Shown: positions 26,462-34,870 of the stretch, piece after piece
Position numbering within the stretch: position 1 is the first letter of the stretch
Layout of the letters: the number at the start of each line of letters is the position of its first letter
Source of the DNA: Gemmatimonas sp.
GTDB lineage: Bacteria; Gemmatimonadota; Gemmatimonadetes; Gemmatimonadales; Gemmatimonadaceae
Direction of reading: 5' to 3'
Assembly (NCBI RefSeq): GCF_027531815.1
Contig: NZ_JAPZSK010000011.1
Span: forward strand, 4,223 to 68,222
DNA: 64,000 nt
The notes under the pieces: model-generated
What the model was told of the DNA's origin: nothing
Databases searched by the model: none
The model's input: the letters and a program-made list of their open reading frames with translations, nothing else
Made by a program: the position numbers and the translations under genes

Positions 26462-26522
26462 GGGGGCCGGCGCATCGCGCCAGCCCCCGTGGTCCCGCCC
26501 ATCACATCGAGTGAGCCGAAGC

Positions 26523-27023
26523 TTACTTGATGGTGATCTTGCCCTTCATGTTCATCGCGAGGTGCGGCGTGCAGTGGTAGTCGTACGTACCAGCCGGAAC
26601 GCCGGCGAACGAGACCGTGTACTCTTCGTTCGCGTTCAGGAGCATCTTGCCCGAGAGCTCACCAGCCTGCTCCGGCATGTTCGCCGTGAGGGCCGTCTTC
26701 GCTTCCGGCGACAGCGTGGCGGGATCGAACGCCACGTTGTGCGGGCCGCCCGAGACCATGACGAACTTGATGCCGTCGCCCGCGGCGATCGTGATTTCGG
26801 CCGGCTCGAAGCGGTAGCCCTGACCGTCACCCACCATGTTCACCGTGTGCGTCGTGCCCGTGATCGGGGCCATCGCGCCAGCCGCCGGAGCCGCCGGAGC
26901 CGCTGCCGCCGCCGTGTCGGCCGCCGGAGCCGCCGCCGAATCCGTCGCCGCCTTGTCACCACCGCCGCACGCGCCGAGCAGGATCGCCGCGCCCGTCACC
27001 ACCGCAAAGCCGAGAAACCGCAT
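26523..27023 (-). CDS. Plastocyanin/auracyanin-like blue copper lipoprotein
   Basis: Lipobox LLGAC, Ala/Pro linker, PHNVAF, YHCTPHLAMNM (type-1 Cu ligands H, C, H, M). Confidence 0.92.
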   Translation of the reverse strand: MRFLGFAVVTGAAILLGACGGGDKAATDSAAAPAADTAAAAAPAAPAAGAMAPITGTTHTVNMVGDGQGYRFEPAEITIAAGDGIKFVMVSGGPHNVAFDPATLSPEAKTALTANMPEQAGELSGKMLLNANEEYTVSFAGVPAGTYDYHCTPHLAMNMKGKITIK

Positions 27024-27108
27024 GTGTGTAGGCCTCCAGAGCCTATAATTCGGAAATTTCCTTTTTTCAGGCCGCCAGACGGCCTGCGCCTGCAGGGCCC
27101 TGCAGACC

Positions 27109-27126
27109 TTGTGAACTTATTCACAA
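27109..27126. promoter_or_regulatory. Perfect palindromic operator TTGTGAA-N4-TTCACAA (Rex consensus; also contains CRP TGTGA-N6-TCACA)
   Basis: ttgtgaacttattcacaa, about 86 bp upstream of the cupredoxin start. Confidence 0.75.
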
Positions 27127-27166
27127 AGGCGACCAGCGCCAAGGGGCAGGTCAGTGGCAACCAGAC

Positions 27167-27195
27167 TTGACGCCATCCCCCAAGACCGCTACCGT
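27167..27195 (+). promoter_or_regulatory. Sigma70-type promoter of the his operon
   Basis: TTGACG, 17-bp spacer, TACCGT, 9 nt before the leader ATG. Confidence 0.65.
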
Positions 27196-27204
27196 GCCGA
27201 GTCT

Positions 27205-27288
27205 ATGCAATCGCTCCGTACCACCCACCATCATGCGCACCACAGCCACGGCCCGACGGGTCGGGGCGCTTCGTGCGTAATGGGGTAA
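27205..27288 (+). CDS. hisL: His operon leader peptide, 27 aa (MQSLRTTHHHAHHSHGPTGRGASCVMG)
   Basis: Six His codons within eight codons directly upstream of a terminator and hisG. Confidence 0.88.
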   Translation: MQSLRTTHHHAHHSHGPTGRGASCVMG

Positions 27289-27319
27289 GCACTCCGCTCC
27301 CCAGCGTACAGCGACCTGC

Positions 27320-27348
27320 GGCCCGTCCCCTCCGGACGGGCCTTTTTT
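27320..27348 (+). terminator. Attenuator (Rho-independent terminator) of the his leader
   Basis: GGCCCGTCC-cctcc-GGACGGGCC-TTTTTT. Its 5' arm can alternatively pair with GACGGGTCG at 27255-27263. Confidence 0.88.
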
Positions 27349-27397
27349 GTTGCCCACCGGGACATCCCGTTCCGTTTTCCCATCAATAGAAGGCCCG

Positions 27398-28276
27398 ATG
27401 CTACGTATCGCCCTCCCCAACAAGGGGCGCCTCTCCGAAGACACCCGCGAGCTCTTCAATGACGCCGGACTCGAAGTCCGCTCGTCCGGCGAACGCGCCC
27501 TCACCGCCTCCCTCGGCGGGGAGTTCGAAGCCATCTTCGTGCGCGCCCAGGACATTCCGGAGTTCGTGGCCGACGGCGCGGCCGATGTGGGCGTGACCGG
27601 CTGGGACCTCGTGAACGAATCGGGACGCCCGCTCACCTCCCACCTCGACCTCGGCTTCGGCCGGTGCCGCCTCGTCGTGGCCGCGCGGGAGGACTCGGGC
27701 ATTCGCTCGGTGGCCGACATCGGCAAGGATGGGGAGCGCATGCGTGTGGCGACCGTCTTTCCCAACATCACCCGCCGCTTCTTTGCACAGGCCGGCCGAC
27801 CGGTGGATGTGGTCCCGGTGTCGGGAGCCGCCGAGATCGCGCCGCACCTGGGCATCGCCGATGTGGTCGTGGATCTCACCTCCACCGGCAGTACCCTGCG
27901 CGTGAATGGCCTGCGCGAGATCGAAACCGTCCTGCGCTCGAGCGCGCACCTCATCACCGCCGAAGGCGGGCCGCGCAACGGTGACCCCGATCGCCGGCAG
28001 GAGCTCGATGATCTGGTCGTGGCCCTTGCCAGCGTGATTCGCGCGCGCAGCCAGCGCTACCTCATGGCGAACGTCCCACGCAAGGCACTCGCCCAGGTGC
28101 GCGACGTGCTGCCGGGGCTCAACGGCCCCACGGTCATCGAAATTGCCGAGTCGAGTCAGTACGTGGCGGTGCACGCCGTCGTGAGCGCCGCGACCATCTA
28201 TCGCACCATTTCGCAGCTGCGTGCGCTCGGTGGCGAGGGCATTCTCGTCACCCGCATCGAGAGGCTCGTGCCGTGA
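27398..28276 (+). CDS. hisG: ATP phosphoribosyltransferase, long form
   Basis: ALPNKGRL, RAQDIPEFVADGAADVGVTG, DLTSTGSTLRVNGL, C-terminal ACT-like domain. Start at ATG 27398. Confidence 0.96.
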   Translation: MLRIALPNKGRLSEDTRELFNDAGLEVRSSGERALTASLGGEFEAIFVRAQDIPEFVADGAADVGVTGWDLVNESGRPLTSHLDLGFGRCRLVVAAREDSGIRSVADIGKDGERMRVATVFPNITRRFFAQAGRPVDVVPVSGAAEIAPHLGIADVVVDLTSTGSTLRVNGLREIETVLRSSAHLITAEGGPRNGDPDRRQELDDLVVALASVIRARSQRYLMANVPRKALAQVRDVLPGLNGPTVIEIAESSQYVAVHAVVSAATIYRTISQLRALGGEGILVTRIERLVP

Positions 28277-29742
28277 CCGCGTCGGTGGAAGCCTCCGTGC
28301 AGTTACGGGCGTTCGGGGCGCTGGCGTCACTCGATGCACCCACGCGTCGTGCCATCGTGGACCGCTCGTCCACGACCGACGGCAGCGTGCGCGAACGCAC
28401 CGCCGCCCTCATCGCCCAGGTACGCGAGCGTGGTGACGACGCGCTGTTCCAGTTCGCCCGCGACTTCGACCGCGTGACGCTCACCTCCCTCGAGGTACCG
28501 CGCCGCGCGTGGGACGCCGCGCTCGAATCACTCGACCCCGCGTTGCGTGTGTCCCTCGAGCGTGCCGCACGGAACATCGCCGCCGTGCACGCGGCGTTTC
28601 GCCCCGTGGAGACCGTCTGCTCCCCCGAACCCGGCATCACGGTGGGGCGCCGGCCGGACCCGCTGCAGCGCGTGGGGATCTACGCGCCCGGCGGACGCGC
28701 CGCCTACCCCAGTTCGCTGCTCATGGGCGCCGTTCCCGCGCGCGTGGCCGGCGTACAAGAGGTGATCGTCTGCTCGCCGCCGGGCCCCGATGGCATGCCA
28801 TCACCGGTCGTACTCGCCGCGGCCGCGCTGGCCAATGTGGACCGGGTGTTCGCGCTCGGCGGCGCCGGCGCCGTCGCCGCCATGGCGCTCGGCACCACGA
28901 GCGTGCCGCGCGTGGATCGCATCATGGGTCCGGGCAACGCGTACGTGGCCGAGGCCAAGCTGCAACTCGTGAACAGCGTGGCCATCGACTCGCCAGCCGG
29001 GCCGAGTGAGCTGCTCGTGCTGGCCGATGCGTCGGCCAACGCCGAGGCCATGGCGCGCGAGATGCTGGCGCAGGCGGAACACGATCCCGACGCGGCCGTG
29101 ATTGCGGTGCTGGCGGGCGATGACGTGGACAACCTGGCGTCGCGCGTGCGCGACGCGCTGGCAGCGCAGATCGCGGTGGCGCCCCGCGCCGAGGTGGTGA
29201 TGCAGTCGCTACGTGAGCGGGGCGCAATCGTCACGGTGTCATCGCTCGACGAGGCCATCGTGTTCACCAACGAATGGGCCGCGGAGCACCTGCTGCTGGT
29301 GGTGCGCGACGCGGTGCGCGACCGCACGCTCGCGGCGCTGCGCAGCGCCGGCACCATCTTTGTGGGCGCGTCGAGCAGCGTGGCCTACGGCGACTACATG
29401 ACAGGGGCCAACCACGTACTGCCCACCGCCGGTGCGGGGCGCAGCTACTCGGGGCTCAGCACCCTCGACTTCGTGCGCTGGACCACGTGGCAGCAGGTCA
29501 CGCCGGCCGCCGCGGCATCACTGAGCGAAGACGTGGGGCGCTTTGCCGACGCCGAGGGACTGCCGGCACACGCCGCCGCCGCCCGCGCCTGGGCCCCCCC
29601 AACCTTCCCGGCCTTCCCGGGGTCAGAGCTGGGGTCAGAGTTGGGGTCAGAGCTGGGGTCAGAGCTGGGGTCAGAGCTGGGGTCAGAGCTGGGGTCAGAG
29701 CTGGGGTCAGAGCTGGGGTCAGAGCTGGGGTCAGAGCCATGA
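28273..29742 (+). CDS. hisD: Histidinol dehydrogenase with repetitive (GSEL)n C-terminal tail
   Basis: [59 protein letters not shown]. Confidence 0.95.
29619..29738 (+). repeat. 12-bp tandem repeat GGGGTCAGAGCT x10 (VNTR) inside the hisD 3' end
   Basis: Ten units; unit 2 ends in TT and unit 10 ends in CC; followed immediately by ATGA (hisC start / hisD stop). Confidence 0.95.
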
Positions 29743-30809
29743 CCGACCGCCTCGCCTTCGCCCGCGCGTTGTACGACGCCGTGCCGCTCTACGACCCCAA
29801 GCGCACGCCGGTGGATCTCGATCTCACCGACAATACGAACCTGTGGGGGCTTCCGCCCACGGCCGAGCGTACGCTGCGCGAGCTCGCGGTATCGCGGGTA
29901 ACGCGCTATCCGTCGCTCTACGCGGCGGAGCTCAAGGAGGAACTCGCGAGGTTCGTGGGGGCCACACCGGAATGCATCGTGACCGGCTGCGGCTCCGACG
30001 ACATTCTCGACAGCGCCATGCGGGCCTTCGGCGAACCCGGGAGCGTGGTGGCCAGCAGCGAGCCGAGCTTCGCCATGATTCCCATCTTCGCGCAGATGAA
30101 CGGGCTGCAGTATGTGGGCGTGACGGAACGCGCCGATCATCAGCCCGACCTCGACGCCTTGCTCGCGGCCAAGCCGCGCATTCTGTATCTGTGCTCGCCC
30201 AACAACCCCACTGGCGCGCTGCTGCAGCGCGAGACCCTCGAGCGTGCCGTGCGGGAGGCGCCGGGCGTGGTGTTCGTCGATGAGGCGTACGCGGAGTTCA
30301 GTGGCGTGTCGGCAGTCGAGCTGGCCAGGCGCGTGGACAACCTGCTGGTGATTCGGACCATGTCGAAGGCGTTCGGCCTGGCCGGCCTGCGGCTGGGATA
30401 CGGCATCGGCGCCGCGCCGCTGGTGCGTGATGTGGAGAAGAGCCGCGGCCCCTACAAGCTCAACAGCGTGGCGGAGCAGATGGCGCTGGCCGCCCTGCGC
30501 CACGATATGCACTGGGTGCAGGAACACGTCGCGTTGGCGGTGCAGAATCGCGAACGTCTCGCCACGGCGCTGCGCGATCGCGGGTATGCGCCACTCGAAT
30601 CTCACGCGAATTACGTCTGCGTACCGGTGGCGCGCGCAGTGGACGTGGGCCAGGCCCTGCGGGCGCGTGGGGTGGCGGCCCGTCCGTTCCCGGCGCTGCC
30701 GCATGTAGGCGATACGCTGCGCGTCAGTGTGGGACCGTGGGATCTGGTACAACGTTTTCTGGAGGCGTTCGATGACGCCACCGCCGACATCTACGGGCAT
30801 GCATCATGA
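29739..30809 (+). CDS. hisC: Histidinol-phosphate aminotransferase
   Basis: DLTDNTN, GCGSDDIL, CSPNNPTG, DEAYAEF, RTMSKAFGLAGLRLGY, LRVSVG. Start at 29739. Confidence 0.95.
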   Translation: MTDRLAFARALYDAVPLYDPKRTPVDLDLTDNTNLWGLPPTAERTLRELAVSRVTRYPSLYAAELKEELARFVGATPECIVTGCGSDDILDSAMRAFGEPGSVVASSEPSFAMIPIFAQMNGLQYVGVTERADHQPDLDALLAAKPRILYLCSPNNPTGALLQRETLERAVREAPGVVFVDEAYAEFSGVSAVELARRVDNLLVIRTMSKAFGLAGLRLGYGIGAAPLVRDVEKSRGPYKLNSVAEQMALAALRHDMHWVQEHVALAVQNRERLATALRDRGYAPLESHANYVCVPVARAVDVGQALRARGVAARPFPALPHVGDTLRVSVGPWDLVQRFLEAFDDATADIYGHAS

Positions 30810-31438
30810 CTGATGTACTGCGCGTCACCGTCTTCGATTACGGAGCCGGCAACCTGCACTCACTGATCAAGGCCATCGAAGCCGGTGGTGCAACCGTGCG
30901 TGTCGAGACCGACCCGGCAGCGGCCGTGCGCGATACCGATGCGTTGGTGCTGCCCGGTGTGGGGGCGTTCGCGCCGGCGGCCGAGCGCCTGGCACCAGGC
31001 CGCGCGGCCATGCGTGAGGCATTGCTCGGCGGATTGCCGGCACTTGGCATCTGTCTCGGCATGCAGCTGCTGTTCGACGCCAGCGACGAGGGCCCGGGCG
31101 AGGGATTGTGCCTCGTTCCCGGTCGCGTGGCAAAACTCACCGCCGAACGGGTGCCGCAGATCGGCTGGAATCGGCTCCACGAGGTCCGCGATCCGTTGCT
31201 GCAGGCGTCCGGGCTCGACGTAGCCTACTATGCCAATTCCTATGTTGGTCGCCCCACGGCCGAGGGCGAGGCGTTCGTGACGGCGTGGAGCGAGCATGAA
31301 GGGGATCGGTTTCCCGCAGCGGTGCGCCGCGCCAACGTGATCGGCACGCAGTTCCATCCCGAGAAGTCGAGTGCACGGGGCGTGGCCTTCGTGCGCGCGT
31401 TCCTCGACTTCGCGTCTTCCGTGAGGACTCCCGTATGA
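30806..31438 (+). CDS. hisH: Imidazole glycerol phosphate synthase, glutaminase subunit
   Basis: DYGAGNL, LPGVGAF, GICLGMQ, PQIGWN, QFHPEKS. Confidence 0.95.
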   Translation: MTDVLRVTVFDYGAGNLHSLIKAIEAGGATVRVETDPAAAVRDTDALVLPGVGAFAPAAERLAPGRAAMREALLGGLPALGICLGMQLLFDASDEGPGEGLCLVPGRVAKLTAERVPQIGWNRLHEVRDPLLQASGLDVAYYANSYVGRPTAEGEAFVTAWSEHEGDRFPAAVRRANVIGTQFHPEKSSARGVAFVRAFLDFASSVRTPV

Positions 31439-32148
31439 TCGCTGTACCCGCCGTGGACCTGCGAGGCGGCAAGTGCGTGCAACTCGTGGGTGGCGACTAC
31501 GACGCGGAGAAGGTGCGACTCGACGATCCCGTGGCCGTGGCGCGTGATTGGGTGCGCGAGGGGTTCAACCGGTTGCACGTGGTGGATCTCGACGCGGCGA
31601 CCGGGCGCGGACGCAACGACGAGGTAATTCGCGAGATCCTGCGCACCGCGGGCGTGCCGGTGCAGGTGGGGGGCGGCGTGCGCGACGAAGCCTGCATCGA
31701 GCGCCTCCTGGACGATGGGGCCCAGTGGGTGGTGGTGGGGACGCGGGCCGTGGAGGACGAAGACTGGCGCACCGAGATGGCAGGTCGCTTCCCCGGGCGG
31801 CTCATCGTGGCGGCCGATGTGCGCGAACGGTACGTGGTCACCAAGGGATGGGCGGAGACGTCGCGCGTCAACGTCCTGGACTTCGTGGAGGAGCTGTCGG
31901 GGCTCCCGCTGGCCGGCGTGCTCGTCACCGCGGTGCACCTGGAAGGCAAGATGCAGGGCACGGACCTCCCGCTCATGGAAGACGTGACGGAGGCGTGCGC
32001 GTGGCCGGTGTTCGCCTCGGGCGGCGTGACCAGCCTGGAAGACATGCGGGCGCTCGAGCACCGCGGCCTGGCCGGCGCGGTGCTGGGCATGGCACTGTAC
32101 ACAGGCGCGATCGACTCGCGCCGTCTCGCTGAGGAGTTTGGCGCATGA
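31435..32148 (+). CDS. hisA: ProFAR isomerase
   Basis: PAVDLRGGKCVQL, LHVVDLD, QVGGGVR, VGTRAV, ASGGV, GMALYTG. Confidence 0.95.
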   Translation: MIAVPAVDLRGGKCVQLVGGDYDAEKVRLDDPVAVARDWVREGFNRLHVVDLDAATGRGRNDEVIREILRTAGVPVQVGGGVRDEACIERLLDDGAQWVVVGTRAVEDEDWRTEMAGRFPGRLIVAADVRERYVVTKGWAETSRVNVLDFVEELSGLPLAGVLVTAVHLEGKMQGTDLPLMEDVTEACAWPVFASGGVTSLEDMRALEHRGLAGAVLGMALYTGAIDSRRLAEEFGA

Positions 32149-32693
32149 CCGTCGTGGTACGGGAATCGAAGGAAACGCAGATCCGCATTGCCCTCAACGA
32201 GCCGTCGGTGACGCTGCCGACGATCGAAACGACCGAGCCGTTCCTCGACCACATGCTGGTGGCGCTGTCGAAGTATGCGGGGGTGTCGTTCGACATCCGC
32301 GCCAAGGGCGACCTGCGGCATCATCTCATCGAGGATGTGGCGATTGCTCTCGGCGCCGCGTTCGCCGCGCACACCCCGGCCAACTGTGCGCGCTACGGCG
32401 AGCGCACCGTGCCCATGGACGACGCCCTGGTGCAGGTGGTGATCGACATGGGTGGTCGCCCGTACTACCGCGGCCCGCTCCCCAGCGGCATCTACGACCA
32501 CTTCATGCGCTCCTTCGCCGACAACGCGAAGGCCACGCTGCACGTGCGCGTACTGCGCGGCACCGACAAGCACCACATCGTGGAAGCGGCGTTCAAGGCG
32601 CTGGGCTTCGCGCTGCGCGAGGCGCTCGTGGAGACCGGCGCGGTGTTCAGCACCAAGGGCTCCGTGAAGCTCGAGATCACCGGACAGGCTTGA
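32145..32693 (+). CDS. hisB: Imidazoleglycerol-phosphate dehydratase (monofunctional, compact)
   Basis: RESKETQI, FLDHML, HHLIED, PMDDAL, HHIVEAAFKALG, STKG. Confidence 0.93.
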   Translation: MTVVVRESKETQIRIALNEPSVTLPTIETTEPFLDHMLVALSKYAGVSFDIRAKGDLRHHLIEDVAIALGAAFAAHTPANCARYGERTVPMDDALVQVVIDMGGRPYYRGPLPSGIYDHFMRSFADNAKATLHVRVLRGTDKHHIVEAAFKALGFALREALVETGAVFSTKGSVKLEITGQA

Positions 32694-32694
32694 G

Positions 32695-33468
32695 ATGCTC
32701 ACCCGTCGTGTGATCGTCTGCCTGGACGTGAAGGGCGGACGTGTGGTGAAGGGGGTGAACTTCGTGGGGCTGCGTGACGTGGGCGATCCGGTGGCGCTGT
32801 CGGGGCGGTACGAGCTCGAAGGCGCCGACGAGATCACCTTCCTCGACATCTCGGCCAGTGCCGAGGAGCGCGCGACCCTGCTGGATGTGGCGCGTCGTAC
32901 CGCGGAGCGTCTGTTCATTCCACTCACCATTGGTGGTGGGGTGCGTACCGCGGACGATGTGGCGCGCGCCCTGCGCGCCGGCGCCGACAAGGTGTCGCTC
33001 AATTCGGCAGCGGTTTCGAACCCCGAGGTGCTGACGGCTGCCGCCGAGCGGTTCGGCGCGCAGTGCGTGGTGGCGAGCATTGACGCGAAGAAGAACGCCG
33101 ACGGGGTCTACAAGGTGTGGGTGAAGGGCGGACGCGAGGAAACGCCGCTCGAGGCCGTGGCATGGGCGCAGGAATGTGTCGCGCGTGGCGCAGGAGAGAT
33201 CCTCCTCACGAGCATCGACCGTGATGGGGCCCGCACGGGGTACGATCTCGAAATTACCCGCGCCGTGGCCGACGCGGTGCATGTGCCCGTCATTGCCTCG
33301 GGCGGTGCCGGCACGGCGGCGCACCTGGTGGATGCCGTGCAGCTGGCAGGCGCCGACGCCGTGCTCGTGGCGGGCATCCTGCACGACGGCCTCACCACCG
33401 TGCACGCGCTCAAGGCGGTCATGCGCGACGCCGGACTGGTGGTGCGTGACGCCATGGTGACGCCATGA
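32695..33468 (+). CDS. hisF: Imidazole glycerol phosphate synthase, cyclase subunit
   Basis: [41 protein letters not shown]. Confidence 0.96.
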
Positions 33469-34247
33469 GCGAGCGCTCGCAGTCCCTGCTGCAGGCGGCC
33501 ACCGAAGTGGCCGAGTATGCCGCGCGCGTGGCCATGCGCTGGTATGGCGCCGGGGTGGCGGTGGAGACCAAGGCGGACGGCTCGCCGGTCACCATTGCCG
33601 ATCGTGAGGCCGAGCGCGAGGCACGCGCATGGATCGAGGCCCGCTTTCCGCACGATGGCCTGTTGGGCGAGGAATTCGACGACGTCCGCCCGCACGCCAC
33701 GCGGCGGTGGATCTTCGATCCGATCGACGGCACCAAGGCCTTCGTGCGCGGCGTGCCCCTGTGGGGGACACTGGTGGCCTGCTGCGAAGGGGAGACCGTG
33801 CTGGCGGGTGCGGCCTGCTATCCGGCCGTTGGCGAAACGGTATCGGCTGCCCCTGGTGAAGGGTGCTGGTGGAACGGGGCACGGGCGAGCGTCTCCACCA
33901 CCGGCACGTTGCGTACCGCCACGGCCCTGATCACCGACAGCCGCTTTCTCGAGCGGCCGCACCGCCGCGATCCCTGGAACGCGCTGGCGGCGGAGGTGGC
34001 CGTATGCCGTACGTGGGGCGATTGCTACGGCTACCTGCTCGTGGCCACCGGCCGCGCGGAGATCATGGTGGACGACATCATGAACCCGTGGGACTCGGCG
34101 GCGCTGCACCCCATCATCACCGAGGCGGGTGGCCGCTTCAGCGACTGGCGTGGGCAAGACACCGCGTTCGGTGGTGATGTCATTGCGACCAACGCGGCGC
34201 TGGCCAACGCGACGCGCCGTTTCCTGCTCGAAACCCCAAATCACTGA
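33465..34247 (+). CDS. hisN: Histidinol-phosphate phosphatase (inositol monophosphatase family)
   Basis: [36 protein letters not shown]; position within the his operon. Confidence 0.9.
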
Positions 34248-34870
34248 TGACCACGCGCACGCTCCTCGATCTCGATGCCCTCGACTTCACCAAGGGCCAG
34301 GGGCTCGTCACGGTCGTGACGCAAGACGCCGGCACCGGTGTGGTGCTCATGGTGGCCCACGCCGACCGCGAGGCGCTCGAAGAGACGCTGCGTACCGGCG
34401 AGATGCACTACCGCTCGCGCAGTCGCGGGTTGTGGCACAAGGGCGGCACCAGCGGCAACGTGCAGCAGGTCGTGTCGCTCACGGCCGACTGCGACCGTGA
34501 TGCGGTTCTGGCGCGTGTCGTACCGGCCGGGCCTGCCTGTCACGATGGAACCACCTCCTGCTTCCGCGAAACCGCACTCGCCAGCGATGCGCTGTCGACC
34601 CTCGACGTCATCATTGCCCAGCGCGCGGCCGCGCCGGCGGCGGACGGCGAGCAGCCCAGCTATACACAGAAACTGCTGGCCGACCGCAACCTGCGGCTCA
34701 AGAAGCTCGGGGAAGAAGCGGTGGAGCTGGCCACCGCGTGTGTCGATCTCGACCGCGCGCGCGCCGTCGAGGAGACGGCCGATCTCGTGTATCACGCTCT
34801 GGTGGCGCTGCGCGCCGTGGGCGGGACACTCGATGATGTGCGTGCCGTGCTCGCGTCGAGAGCGCGCTGA
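34247..34870 (+). CDS. hisIE: Bifunctional phosphoribosyl-AMP cyclohydrolase / phosphoribosyl-ATP diphosphatase
   Basis: [54 protein letters not shown]. Confidence 0.95.

What the first reader, a model, noticed from the sequence alone, without database searches (positions are those of the whole stretch)
27205..27348. Classical ribosome-mediated his attenuator in a Gemmatimonas-like genome
Seen: a 27-aa leader with HHHAHHSH. GACGGGTCG (27255-27263) lies right after the His codons and can pair with CGGCCCGTC (27319-27327; 9 bp, one G-U). That segment is also the 5' arm of a 9-bp terminator with a U6 tail. A competing small hairpin CCCGA/TCGGG (27252-27265) could sequester the antiterminator. 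Known: this is the architecture of the enterobacterial hisL attenuator. I am not aware of a description in this lineage, but I cannot check the literature.
Basis: partly seen in the sequence, partly recalled or inferred. Interest (0 to 1): 0.65.

Follow-up and report, generated by a model that had tools for sequence, protein, structure and literature searches.

The report
Histidine leader-peptide attenuator before hisG
A 27-codon, histidine-rich mini-gene followed by a switchable transcription stop signal sits in front of the nine-gene histidine-synthesis operon of this Gemmatimonas genome; it is very probably the textbook "stalled ribosome" histidine sensor, here in an uncatalogued RNA family shared with Myxococcota and Eisenbacteria.

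Summary
It comprises a leader ORF at 27205-27288 (MQSLRTTHHHAHHSHGPTGRGASCVMG), a 9-bp terminator with U6 at 27320-27348, and a 9-bp antiterminator pairing (27255-27263 with 27319-27327).

It lies 50 nt upstream of hisG, the first gene of a hisG-D-C-H-A-B-F-N-IE operon.

It is not chance:
- The His run, the 1:2 hairpin and the terminator are kept in about 100 relatives.
- His codons change only synonymously (C/T at position 3).
- The codons that form the RNA helices are conserved at third positions too.
- The 1:2 hairpin shows compensatory changes.

Constrained folding shows that a ribosome at the His codons removes about 9 of the 10 kcal/mol that favour termination. A long antiterminator hairpin (-44 kcal/mol) can then form first.

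A covariance model finds the element in 99/401 Gemmatimonadota, 83/301 Myxococcota and 15/81 Eisenbacteria genomes. The weakest hits include false positives.

It matches no Rfam, Pfam or NCBIfam family, and I found no paper on it.

The start codon lies 5-10 nt after a conserved -10 box, so the leader ORF is probably leaderless.

The mechanism is textbook, so this is a new member of a known kind. No expression data could be obtained.

The parts
27167..27172 (+). -35 box TTGACG of the his leader promoter
   Evidence: TTGAC is invariant or nearly so in 25 upstream regions. The spacer to the -10 box is 17 nt in 68 of 86 relatives with a detectable promoter. The consensus scan did not score it because the -10 box is weak.
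27190..27195 (+). -10 box TACCGT (TAnnnT)
   Evidence: T, A and the last T are invariant in alignment A1. The box ends 9 nt before the leader ATG. Across relatives this distance is 5-10 nt in 81 of 85, which leaves no room for a Shine-Dalgarno site. The transcription start itself is inferred, not measured.
27205..27288 (+). Leader ORF, 27 codons plus TAA: MQSLRTTHHHAHHSHGPTGRGASCVMG
   Evidence: Translation. An ORF of 25-31 codons in the same frame and position occurs in 25/25 close relatives and in most of about 100 loci. It matches no Pfam or NCBIfam family and is not a called gene in the 15-billion-protein collection.
27226..27249 (+). Regulatory His codons: CAC CAT CAT GCG CAC CAC AGC CAC (H H H A H H S H)
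   Evidence: In 85 aligned sequences, positions 1-2 of these codons are C and A in 68-85 sequences. Position 3 toggles essentially only between C and T, which is synonymous.
27234..27279 (+). Segment 1:2 structure (anti-antiterminator, possibly also a pause hairpin). Its helices are 27234-40/27273-79, 27245-47/27265-67 and 27249-54/27258-63.
   Evidence: Part of the MFE fold (-13.8 kcal/mol for the local hairpin, -28.1 for the extended form). The inner hairpin is 89.8% paired over 85 sequences, with changes on both sides in 4 of 9 pairs. RNAalifold predicts both the inner and the outer helix independently.
27255..27327 (+). Antiterminator: a long hairpin. The lower stem pairs 27255-27270 with 27310-27327, the upper stem pairs 27273-78 with 27304-09, and the apical hairpin spans 27281-27303 and holds the stop codon.
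   Evidence: -44.1 kcal/mol. It forms in constrained folds with a ribosome at His codons 10-13 in the window and its relatives. The lower stem is 77.9% paired over 85 sequences and its first 8 pairs range from 47% (the outermost pair, G-C in 40 of 85) to 100%. It formed in 86/96 sequences against 26% of shuffled controls.
27320..27348 (+). Intrinsic terminator: GGCCCGTCC, loop CCTCC, GGACGGGCC, then T6
   Evidence: Found; -20.4 kcal/mol. It is 99.6% paired in 85 sequences, and the closing pair varies GC 66 / GU 12 / AU 7. The core GCCCGT...GACGGGC is nearly invariant across three phyla.
27398..34870 (+). Regulated operon: hisG (long form), hisD, hisC, hisH, hisA, hisB (IGPD), hisF, hisN (IMPase family), hisIE
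   Evidence: Pfam assignments. The genes are contiguous or overlapping on the + strand, and the hisG ATG at 27398 lies 50 nt after the T-tract.

Best explanation
This is a ribosome-mediated (leader-peptide) transcription attenuator that makes expression of the hisGDCHABFN-IE operon depend on the supply of charged tRNA-His.

Transcription starts at, or 2-3 nt before, the leader AUG (inferred), so a ribosome can load on the nascent 5' end without a Shine-Dalgarno site.

When His-tRNA is plentiful:
- The ribosome reads through the six His codons and along segment 2 (27255-27285) to the stop codon at 27286.
- It thereby occupies or melts the 5' strand and apex of the antiterminator.
- Behind it, the local hairpin CGGCCC/GGGUCG re-forms and sequesters segment 2.
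- The terminator (27320-27342 plus U6) then forms and transcription stops before hisG.

When His-tRNA is scarce:
- The ribosome stalls with a His codon in the A site, and its footprint covers segment 1 (up to about 27254).
- Segment 2 stays free and pairs with segment 3 as that segment emerges, building a 73-nt antiterminator hairpin that uses the terminator's 5' arm.
- RNA polymerase reads through into hisG.

Shown here: all sequence elements, their conservation, codon-level selection on His, and the mutual exclusivity and energetics of the structures. Inferred: the transcription start, ribosome positions, the kinetics, and the response to histidine itself.
For: 1. Anatomy is confirmed, directly upstream of a complete his operon.

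2. The element is conserved. The leader ORF, His run, 1:2 hairpin and terminator occur in 25/25 close relatives and about 100 loci.

3. Selection acts on codon identity. His codons vary only C/T at position 3, whereas codons 18-21, which form the helices, are conserved at third positions (G 85/85 at 27258). The N-terminal residues of the peptide vary freely.

4. Structure is supported.
- Terminator: 99.6% paired.
- 1:2 hairpin: 89.8% paired, with compensatory changes.
- RNAalifold independently returns the 1:2 inner and outer helices and the terminator.
- Antiterminator lower stem: 77.9% paired.

5. The switch behaves as the model requires.

| Ribosome position | Terminator state (kcal/mol) | Antiterminator state (kcal/mol) |
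|---|---|---|
| none | -66.9 | -56.8 |
| His10 | -56.3 | -55.1 |
| His13 | -49.3 | -47.9 |
| stop codon | -45.4 | -35.4 |

(All.) Before the 3' arm is made, the antiterminator forms in 86/96 natural sequences with a ribosome at a middle His codon, against 26% of shuffled controls.

6. A distant relative with a different terminator (L162, CCGCGGCUCG.../...CGAGCCGCGG) has a matching segment 2 (GGGUCGCGG).

7. The same promoter + near-leaderless sORF + terminator design recurs once more in this genome, with an aromatic-rich leader before a DAHP synthase gene. These two are 2 of only 4 genome-wide hits to the pattern.
Against: - No expression, transcription-start or termination data exist.
- Equilibrium folding does not by itself give the switch. 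With the full transcript and a ribosome on the His codons, the MFE still contains the terminator in 83-92 of 96 sequences. The decision must therefore be kinetic, as it is for trp.
- Before the terminator's 3' arm emerges, the MFE of untranslated RNA already holds the antiterminator in 68/96 sequences. The behaviour without translation (super-attenuation or read-through) is therefore unclear.
- With a ribosome at the stop codon, the lower 9 bp of the antiterminator are not covered by the footprint.
- The antiterminator core is nearly invariant, so it carries little covariation evidence.
- In Streptomyces, similar-looking ilvB and leuA leaders did not behave as classical attenuators when the regulatory codons were mutated (PMC1262725).
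Confidence: 0.85

Rival explanations
1. The leader and terminator do regulate the his operon, but not by classical ribosome stalling. For example, the conserved RNA (GGCCCGACGGGUCGGGG plus the terminator) could bind a protein or ligand, or control could run through Rho or translation-coupled polarity. The His codons would then be secondary.
For: Nucleotide-level conservation of segments 1-4 is extreme across three phyla. That is more than base pairing alone needs and could reflect a binding site. Untranslated RNA already favours the antiterminator before the 3' arm emerges in 68/96 sequences. There is a precedent for leader-like elements that are not classical attenuators in Streptomyces (PMC1262725).
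Against: Four near-identical, mutually complementary 9-mers that must each pair with two partners explain the slow evolution without any added factor. The His codons are under clear codon-identity selection, which a protein- or ligand-binding model does not predict. No riboswitch or T-box match was found.
Confidence: 0.08
2. The small ORF encodes a functional His-rich micro-protein, for example a metal-binding peptide, and the hairpin is simply its own terminator or a leaky operon-internal terminator. There would be no amino-acid sensing.
For: The HHHxHHxH motif resembles metal-binding tags, and the ORF is conserved.
Against: - The peptide's N-terminus, C-terminus and length vary freely.
- The conserved 'GPTGRG' part is conserved at synonymous sites, so it is under RNA-level selection.
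- In about 100 genomes the element lies directly upstream of hisG. In one genome a second copy precedes a class I/II aminotransferase gene, probably hisC.
- A terminator with a cognate antiterminator is not needed for a stand-alone gene.
Confidence: 0.04
3. It is a chance co-occurrence of a His-rich ORF and a hairpin in a GC-rich intergenic region.
For: GC-rich genomes hold many spurious ORFs and stems.
Against: The element is conserved in three phyla with a one-per-genome distribution upstream of hisG. There are only 130 strict terminators in the genome. Only 4 genome-wide hits match the promoter + sORF pattern, and 2 of them carry cognate-amino-acid leaders.
Confidence: 0.01

Closest known systems
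his operon attenuator of Escherichia coli and Salmonella (hisL; Rfam His_leader RF00514; Pfam PF08047)
   Same: Both have a short leader ORF with a cluster of His codons directly upstream of hisG, an intrinsic terminator before the first structural gene, and alternative pairings in which a ribosome stalled at the His codons favours the antiterminator (mechanism as summarised in PMC3896937 and PMC9413887).
   Different: - No sequence or structure similarity: there was no RF00514 match even at E <= 10 and no PF08047 or NCBIfam match.
- The His run is interrupted (6 of 8 codons) rather than 7 in a row.
- 12 further codons follow the last His, so the stop codon sits in the apex of the antiterminator.
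- The layout has four segments, like trp, rather than the six-segment A-F scheme.
- There is probably no 5' UTR or Shine-Dalgarno site.
trp operon attenuator of E. coli (trpL; segments 1:2, 2:3, 3:4)
   Same: Both use four-segment logic: 1:2 and 3:4 give termination, 2:3 gives read-through. The regulatory codons lie in or next to segment 1. The 3:4 terminator is thermodynamically as good as or better than 2:3, so the outcome is decided kinetically (the trp comparison rests on established knowledge).
   Different: The amino acid sensed is different. The antiterminator here is a very long hairpin (-44 kcal/mol), more stable than 1:2 (-28). Segments 1 and 3, and segments 2 and 4, are near-copies of each other.
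Leaderless poly-Cys short-ORF attenuators of mycobacteria (bioRxiv 10.1101/834739)
   Same: In both, a short regulatory ORF begins at the 5' end of a leaderless polycistronic mRNA, carries a run of the cognate codons, and controls downstream biosynthetic genes (title and abstract seen).
   Different: The phylum and the amino acid are different. Here a canonical intrinsic terminator and antiterminator are present. Leaderless status here is inferred only from the spacing between the -10 box and the ATG.
Predicted His-leader attenuators in Firmicutes (hisZ/hisS of the B. cereus group, C. difficile, Erysipelotrichales; PMC9413887, PMC2965389)
   Same: Both are lineage-specific His-leader plus terminator/antiterminator elements found by comparative genomics. 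Both lie outside the Rfam His_leader family, and both replace other his regulators such as T-box or HisR.
   Different: The sequences are unrelated. Those have 3-5 consecutive His codons and Shine-Dalgarno-led ORFs. The present family spans at least three phyla and travels with one lineage of long-form hisG.

Membership tests
Classical ribosome-mediated (leader-peptide) transcription attenuator | Short translatable ORF in the 5' leader with a cluster of codons for the amino acid made by the operon | tested here: met
   27-codon ORF with 6 His codons in 8, upstream of hisG. His codons are kept with synonymous-only variation in 85 sequences.
Classical ribosome-mediated (leader-peptide) transcription attenuator | Intrinsic (Rho-independent) terminator between the leader ORF and the first structural gene | tested here: met
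   9-bp GC stem plus U6 at 27320-27348, 50 nt before the hisG ATG. It is 99.6% paired in 85 relatives.
Classical ribosome-mediated (leader-peptide) transcription attenuator | Antiterminator that is mutually exclusive with the terminator | tested here: met
   27255-27270 pairs with 27310-27327, using the terminator's 5' arm. It formed in 86/96 natural sequences against 26% of shuffled ones when a ribosome masks the His codons.
Classical ribosome-mediated (leader-peptide) transcription attenuator | Anti-antiterminator (segment 1) that overlaps or abuts the regulatory codons, so that a stalled ribosome masks it | tested here: met
   The 5' strand at 27234-27254 includes His codons 10-15. The hairpin is 89.8% paired with compensatory changes and is predicted independently by RNAalifold.
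Classical ribosome-mediated (leader-peptide) transcription attenuator | Read-through increases when charged cognate tRNA is scarce and depends on leader translation | not testable with these tools
Rfam His_leader RF00514 / Pfam PF08047 (gamma-proteobacterial hisL) | Match to the family's covariance model | tested here: not met
   No RF00514 hit at E <= 10 in the window region, nor at E <= 1 in five related loci.
Rfam His_leader RF00514 / Pfam PF08047 (gamma-proteobacterial hisL) | Leader peptide matches the His_leader protein family | tested here: not met
   No Pfam or NCBIfam match at E <= 10 for three leader peptides.
Leaderless short-ORF attenuators (as in mycobacterial Cys-responsive sORFs) | The start codon of the regulatory ORF is at or within a few nt of the transcription start, with no Shine-Dalgarno site | tested here: inconclusive
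   The conserved TTGAC-N17-TAnnnT promoter ends 5-10 nt before the start codon in 81/85 relatives, and 9 nt before it in the window. No 5'-end data exist.

The most novel reading that the evidence does not exclude
The element is one member of a single, uncatalogued His-leader RNA family. In this reading it is translated from a leaderless mRNA, and it has travelled together with one lineage of long-form hisG across at least three phyla (Gemmatimonadota, Myxococcota, Eisenbacteria; earlier scan notes claim about ten). It would also be built on four near-identical 9-mers, so that the 'default' co-transcriptional fold is the antiterminator and termination needs an actively translating ribosome. 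That is the reverse of the super-attenuation behaviour of trp and his in E. coli.
Probability: 0.4. Interest if true: 0.5.

Novelty: new member of a known kind. Interest (0 to 1): 0.35.

Why it matters
- It extends classical leader-peptide attenuation, usually taught as a proteobacterial device, to Gemmatimonadota. In doing so it defines a conserved, searchable RNA family (model R1) that is absent from Rfam, Pfam and NCBIfam and is also present in Myxococcota and Eisenbacteria.
- It gives annotators a rule for an unannotated regulatory gene upstream of hisG in hundreds of genomes.
- It offers a tractable test system. Myxococcus xanthus carries the same element, so one can ask whether leaderless 70S initiation can drive transcription-translation coupling in attenuation.
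- Its co-occurrence with one hisG lineage is a marker for horizontal movement of a whole operon together with its regulator.
- The mechanism itself would not surprise a specialist.

Tried and rejected
- **Rfam scans.** I scanned the window region and five related loci. The only hits were terminator look-alikes (anti-hemB, suhB) and one chance miRNA hit. There was no His_leader, T-box or riboswitch match.
- **Consensus promoter scan.** It found nothing because the -10 box is weak. The promoter was instead defined from conservation.
- **Equilibrium 'switch' test on full-length RNA with a masked ribosome.** It does not discriminate, because the terminator persists in the MFE of most sequences. 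I replaced it with a co-transcriptional test and explicit two-state energies.
- **Covariation in the variable middle of the antiterminator.** The MAFFT alignment is unreliable there, with only 38-47% of cells paired. I relied on per-sequence folds instead.
- **Genome-wide search for further leader-peptide attenuators.** This covered Trp, Leu, Ile/Val, Thr, Cys and others. Candidates with Trp pairs proved to be ends of coding genes. Only the His leader and an aromatic leader survive.
- **Weak R1 hits.** L154, L157 and L163 (E 1e-4 to 8e-4) are false positives that consist of a terminator only, so tallies near E = 1e-3 overcount.
- **Exact-sequence look-up of leader peptides.** They are not in the protein collection.
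- **Direction of transfer between phyla.** The HisG tree is an unresolved polytomy at its base.

Full report

Yes. The + strand reads ATG at 27205 and TAA at 27286-27288, giving MQSLRTTHHHAHHSHGPTGRGASCVMG.
- The His codons are CAC CAT CAT GCG CAC CAC AGC CAC at 27226-27249.
- GACGGGTCG is at 27255-27263 and CGGCCCGTC at 27319-27327.
- The terminator is GGCCCGTCC / CCTCC / GGACGGGCC followed by T6 (27320-27348). It is the only terminator-like site in 26500-28000.
- The 146-nt leader folds to -66.9 kcal/mol, z = -3.97 against dinucleotide shuffles.

One correction concerns the competing small hairpin. The thermodynamically preferred and phylogenetically supported register is CGGCCC (27249-54) / GGGUCG (27258-63), not CCCGA/TCGGG. 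It is extended by GCC/GGC and by UGCGCAC (27234-40) / GUGCGUA (27273-79), so the His codons themselves are part of segment 1.

**2. Context**

Downstream lie nine his genes: hisG (long form, HisG + HisG_C; ATG 27398), hisD, hisC, hisH, hisA, hisB (IGPD), hisF, an IMPase-family gene (hisN) and hisIE. They are contiguous or overlapping and run to 34870.

Upstream, on the opposite strand, is a cupredoxin gene. The terminator therefore cannot belong to an upstream gene.

Record titles of the closest genomes identify the organism as Gemmatimonas.

**3. Conservation**

HisG was located in 31 of 41 related genomes.
- In all 25 close relatives with long-form hisG, the upstream region holds an ORF of 25-31 codons in the same position with the pattern HHHxHHxH. 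It also holds the hairpin and the terminator.
- A scan of one genome per species returned 80 more loci. Nearly all have a His-rich leader and the same terminator core.

Codon analysis on an 85-sequence alignment (A2) separates two kinds of constraint.
- The six His codons have C and A at positions 1-2 in 68-85 of 85 sequences. Position 3 toggles between C and T (for example 64/21, 62/23, 52/32).
- Codons 18-21 (ACG GGT CGG GGC) are conserved at their third positions (G 85/85 at 27258).
- The first pattern is selection for His codons. The second is selection on RNA.
- The N-terminal residues, the C-terminal residues and the ORF length vary freely, so the peptide as such is not the conserved product.

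**4. Structures**

Pair counts on A2:

| Element | Cells paired | Variation |
|---|---|---|
| Terminator | 99.6% | closing pair GC 66 / GU 12 / AU 7 |
| Inner 1:2 hairpin | 89.8% | changes on both sides in 4 of 9 pairs (e.g. CG 58 / UG 12 / GU 10 / UA 2) |
| Antiterminator lower stem | 77.9% | first eight pairs 47-100% (outermost pair weakest) but almost invariant, so little covariation |

RNAalifold, run without any input from me, predicts the inner 1:2 hairpin, an outer helix between the GCG-centred His-codon stretch and GUGCG, and the terminator.

Per-sequence constrained folds show that a ribosome with codons His10-His13 in the A site leaves a long hairpin. In it, the sequence just after the His run pairs with the terminator's 5' arm, in the window and in its relatives.

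A distant relative with a different terminator (L162) has a correspondingly different segment 2.

**5. Energetics in the window**

Individual elements:
- Terminator: -20.4 kcal/mol.
- 1:2 hairpin: -13.8 local, -28.1 extended.
- Antiterminator: -44.1.

Two-state comparison by ribosome position:

| Ribosome position | Terminator state | Antiterminator state |
|---|---|---|
| none | -66.9 | -56.8 |
| His10 | -56.3 | -55.1 |
| His13 | -49.3 | -47.9 |
| stop codon | -45.4 | -35.4 |

Stalling therefore removes about 9 of the 10 kcal/mol that favour termination. Because the antiterminator is completed before the terminator's 3' arm is made, it should win kinetically.

In a co-transcriptional test (3' arm absent), the antiterminator formed in 86/96 natural sequences with a ribosome at a middle His codon, against 26% of controls whose middle region was shuffled.

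Three caveats apply.
- At equilibrium on the full transcript, the terminator persists in most sequences even with the mask.
- Untranslated RNA already prefers the antiterminator before the 3' arm emerges in 68/96 sequences.
- The lower 9 bp are not covered by a ribosome at the stop codon.

The model is thus kinetically plausible, as trp is, but it is not proven by folding.

**6. Promoter and probable leaderless start**

TTGACG (27167-72), a 17-nt spacer and TACCGT (27190-95) are conserved: TTGAC, T, A and the last T are invariant or nearly so.
- The -10 box ends 9 nt before the ATG in the window.
- It ends 5-10 nt before the start codon in 81 of 85 relatives. The start is ATG in 74 and GTG in 10, the GTG cases being mostly Myxococcota.
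- No Shine-Dalgarno site can fit in that space.

Transcription at or within about 3 nt of the start codon is therefore inferred. It was not measured.

**7. Distribution**

A covariance model (R1) built from A2 matched the following at E <= 0.001:

| Group searched | Genomes with a match | Notes |
|---|---|---|
| Gemmatimonadota | 99 of 401 | 47 of 147 genera; essentially one copy per genome; confined to the class that holds Gemmatimonas once false positives are removed |
| Myxococcota | 83 of 301 | about 65 strong matches, including Myxococcus xanthus, Corallococcus, Pyxidicoccus and Hyalangium |
| Eisenbacteria | 15 of 81 | |

Distant hits that I inspected lie upstream of hisG and carry His-rich ORFs.

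HisG of Myxococcaceae is about 70% identical to the window's HisG, which is as close as other Gemmatimonadaceae genera are. Myxococcota HisG forms one clade (SH-aLRT 100) arising from an unresolved polytomy with Gemmatimonadota lineages. Operon and leader therefore appear to have moved together between phyla. The direction is unresolved.

**8. Comparison with what is known**

The element works like the hisL and trpL attenuators. It is not a member of Rfam His_leader or of Pfam/NCBIfam leader-peptide families, and the peptide is not a called gene anywhere in the protein collection.

Full-text searches found no paper linking Gemmatimonadota or Myxococcus to a his attenuator.
- Reviews place his attenuators in Proteobacteria, with predicted ones in Firmicutes (PMC9413887, PMC2965389).
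- None were seen in Actinobacteria in 2005 (PMC1262725).
- Subscription-journal surveys, such as Vitreschak 2004 and Lopatovskaya 2010 (recalled from memory), could not be read.

Earlier notes of this scan on other Gemmatimonas genomes reached the same reading. I re-derived their claims here, so they are not independent support. They do show that this is a recurrent family rather than a singular find.

**9. Verdict**

It is a new member of a known kind. Interest is moderate: the mechanism is textbook, while the family, its probable leaderless translation and its cross-phylum spread are new to the catalogues.

Noticed in passing
window 27109-27126: A perfect palindrome, TTGTGAA-CTTA-TTCACAA, lies in the divergent cupredoxin/his promoter region. 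It fits the Rex-type consensus TTGTGAA-N4-TTCACAA and also holds TGTGA-N6-TCACA. It is nearly invariant across the genus in alignment A1. An earlier first-reader note (e1-5248759) already flagged it.
   Followed up: partly
own genome contig C9, about 185060-185330 (+), outside the window: This is a second leader-peptide attenuator of the same design. It has TTGACA-N17-TAGTGT, then 7 nt, then the ATG of an aromatic-rich leader (MMRHFYASRFYYVPTRMGLGMFGVRS). The leader contains GGGCCTCGGC, which mimics the 3' arm of a long downstream hairpin (CGACCGAGAGGCCCGTGC-AACC-GCACGGGCCTCGGTCG followed by TTTC). It lies upstream of a DAHP synthase gene. It and the His leader are 2 of only 4 genome-wide hits to the promoter + sORF pattern.
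   Followed up: partly
L158 (G107:C44:1711-3500), leader at about 287-370: Another Gemmatimonadaceae genus has a Tyr-rich leader (MNRDPRSYAYYYRTARSTGRERRRMRG) plus a terminator, GGCCCGTGG-ATTTC-CACGGGCC followed by T7. They lie upstream of a DAHP synthase gene with a ferredoxin-like N-terminal domain.
   Followed up: partly
L155 and L156 (G334:C210, 9.5 kb apart): One Gemmatimonadetes-class genome carries two copies of the His leader. One precedes hisG. The other precedes a class I/II aminotransferase gene, probably hisC.
   Followed up: partly
window 28273-29742 (hisD) and 29274-30809 (hisC ORF): The hisD ORF is 489 aa, about 50 aa longer than the Histidinol_dh domain (Pfam match ends at residue 438). 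It overlaps the long hisC reading frame. An earlier first-reader note (e1-5248760) attributes the tail to an in-frame 12-bp tandem repeat at 29619-29742.
   Followed up: no
L022 and L071 (same-genus genomes): These leader variants have an insertion of about 40 nt between the His run and the terminator, and an earlier stop (MRPRALQTHHQHHRHHPAARAAGTER). The terminator is unchanged.
   Followed up: no
L026, L029 (other Gemmatimonadales families): In these genomes hisG is the short form, immediately preceded by a reading frame I read by eye as hisZ-like (not checked against any family library), and no His leader was detected. L027 and L030, with a divergent hisG (about 35% identity), do have His-rich sORFs (MRSGLRHHVHHHHPLTGRG; MTRTSSHRHHHGHSVHGG) with a different terminator.
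   Followed up: no
own genome, whole: Only 130 strict intrinsic terminators (perfect stem of at least 6 bp, GC-rich, T4 or longer) were found on both strands of the 4.3-Mb genome. Canonical terminators therefore seem rare in this organism.
   Followed up: no
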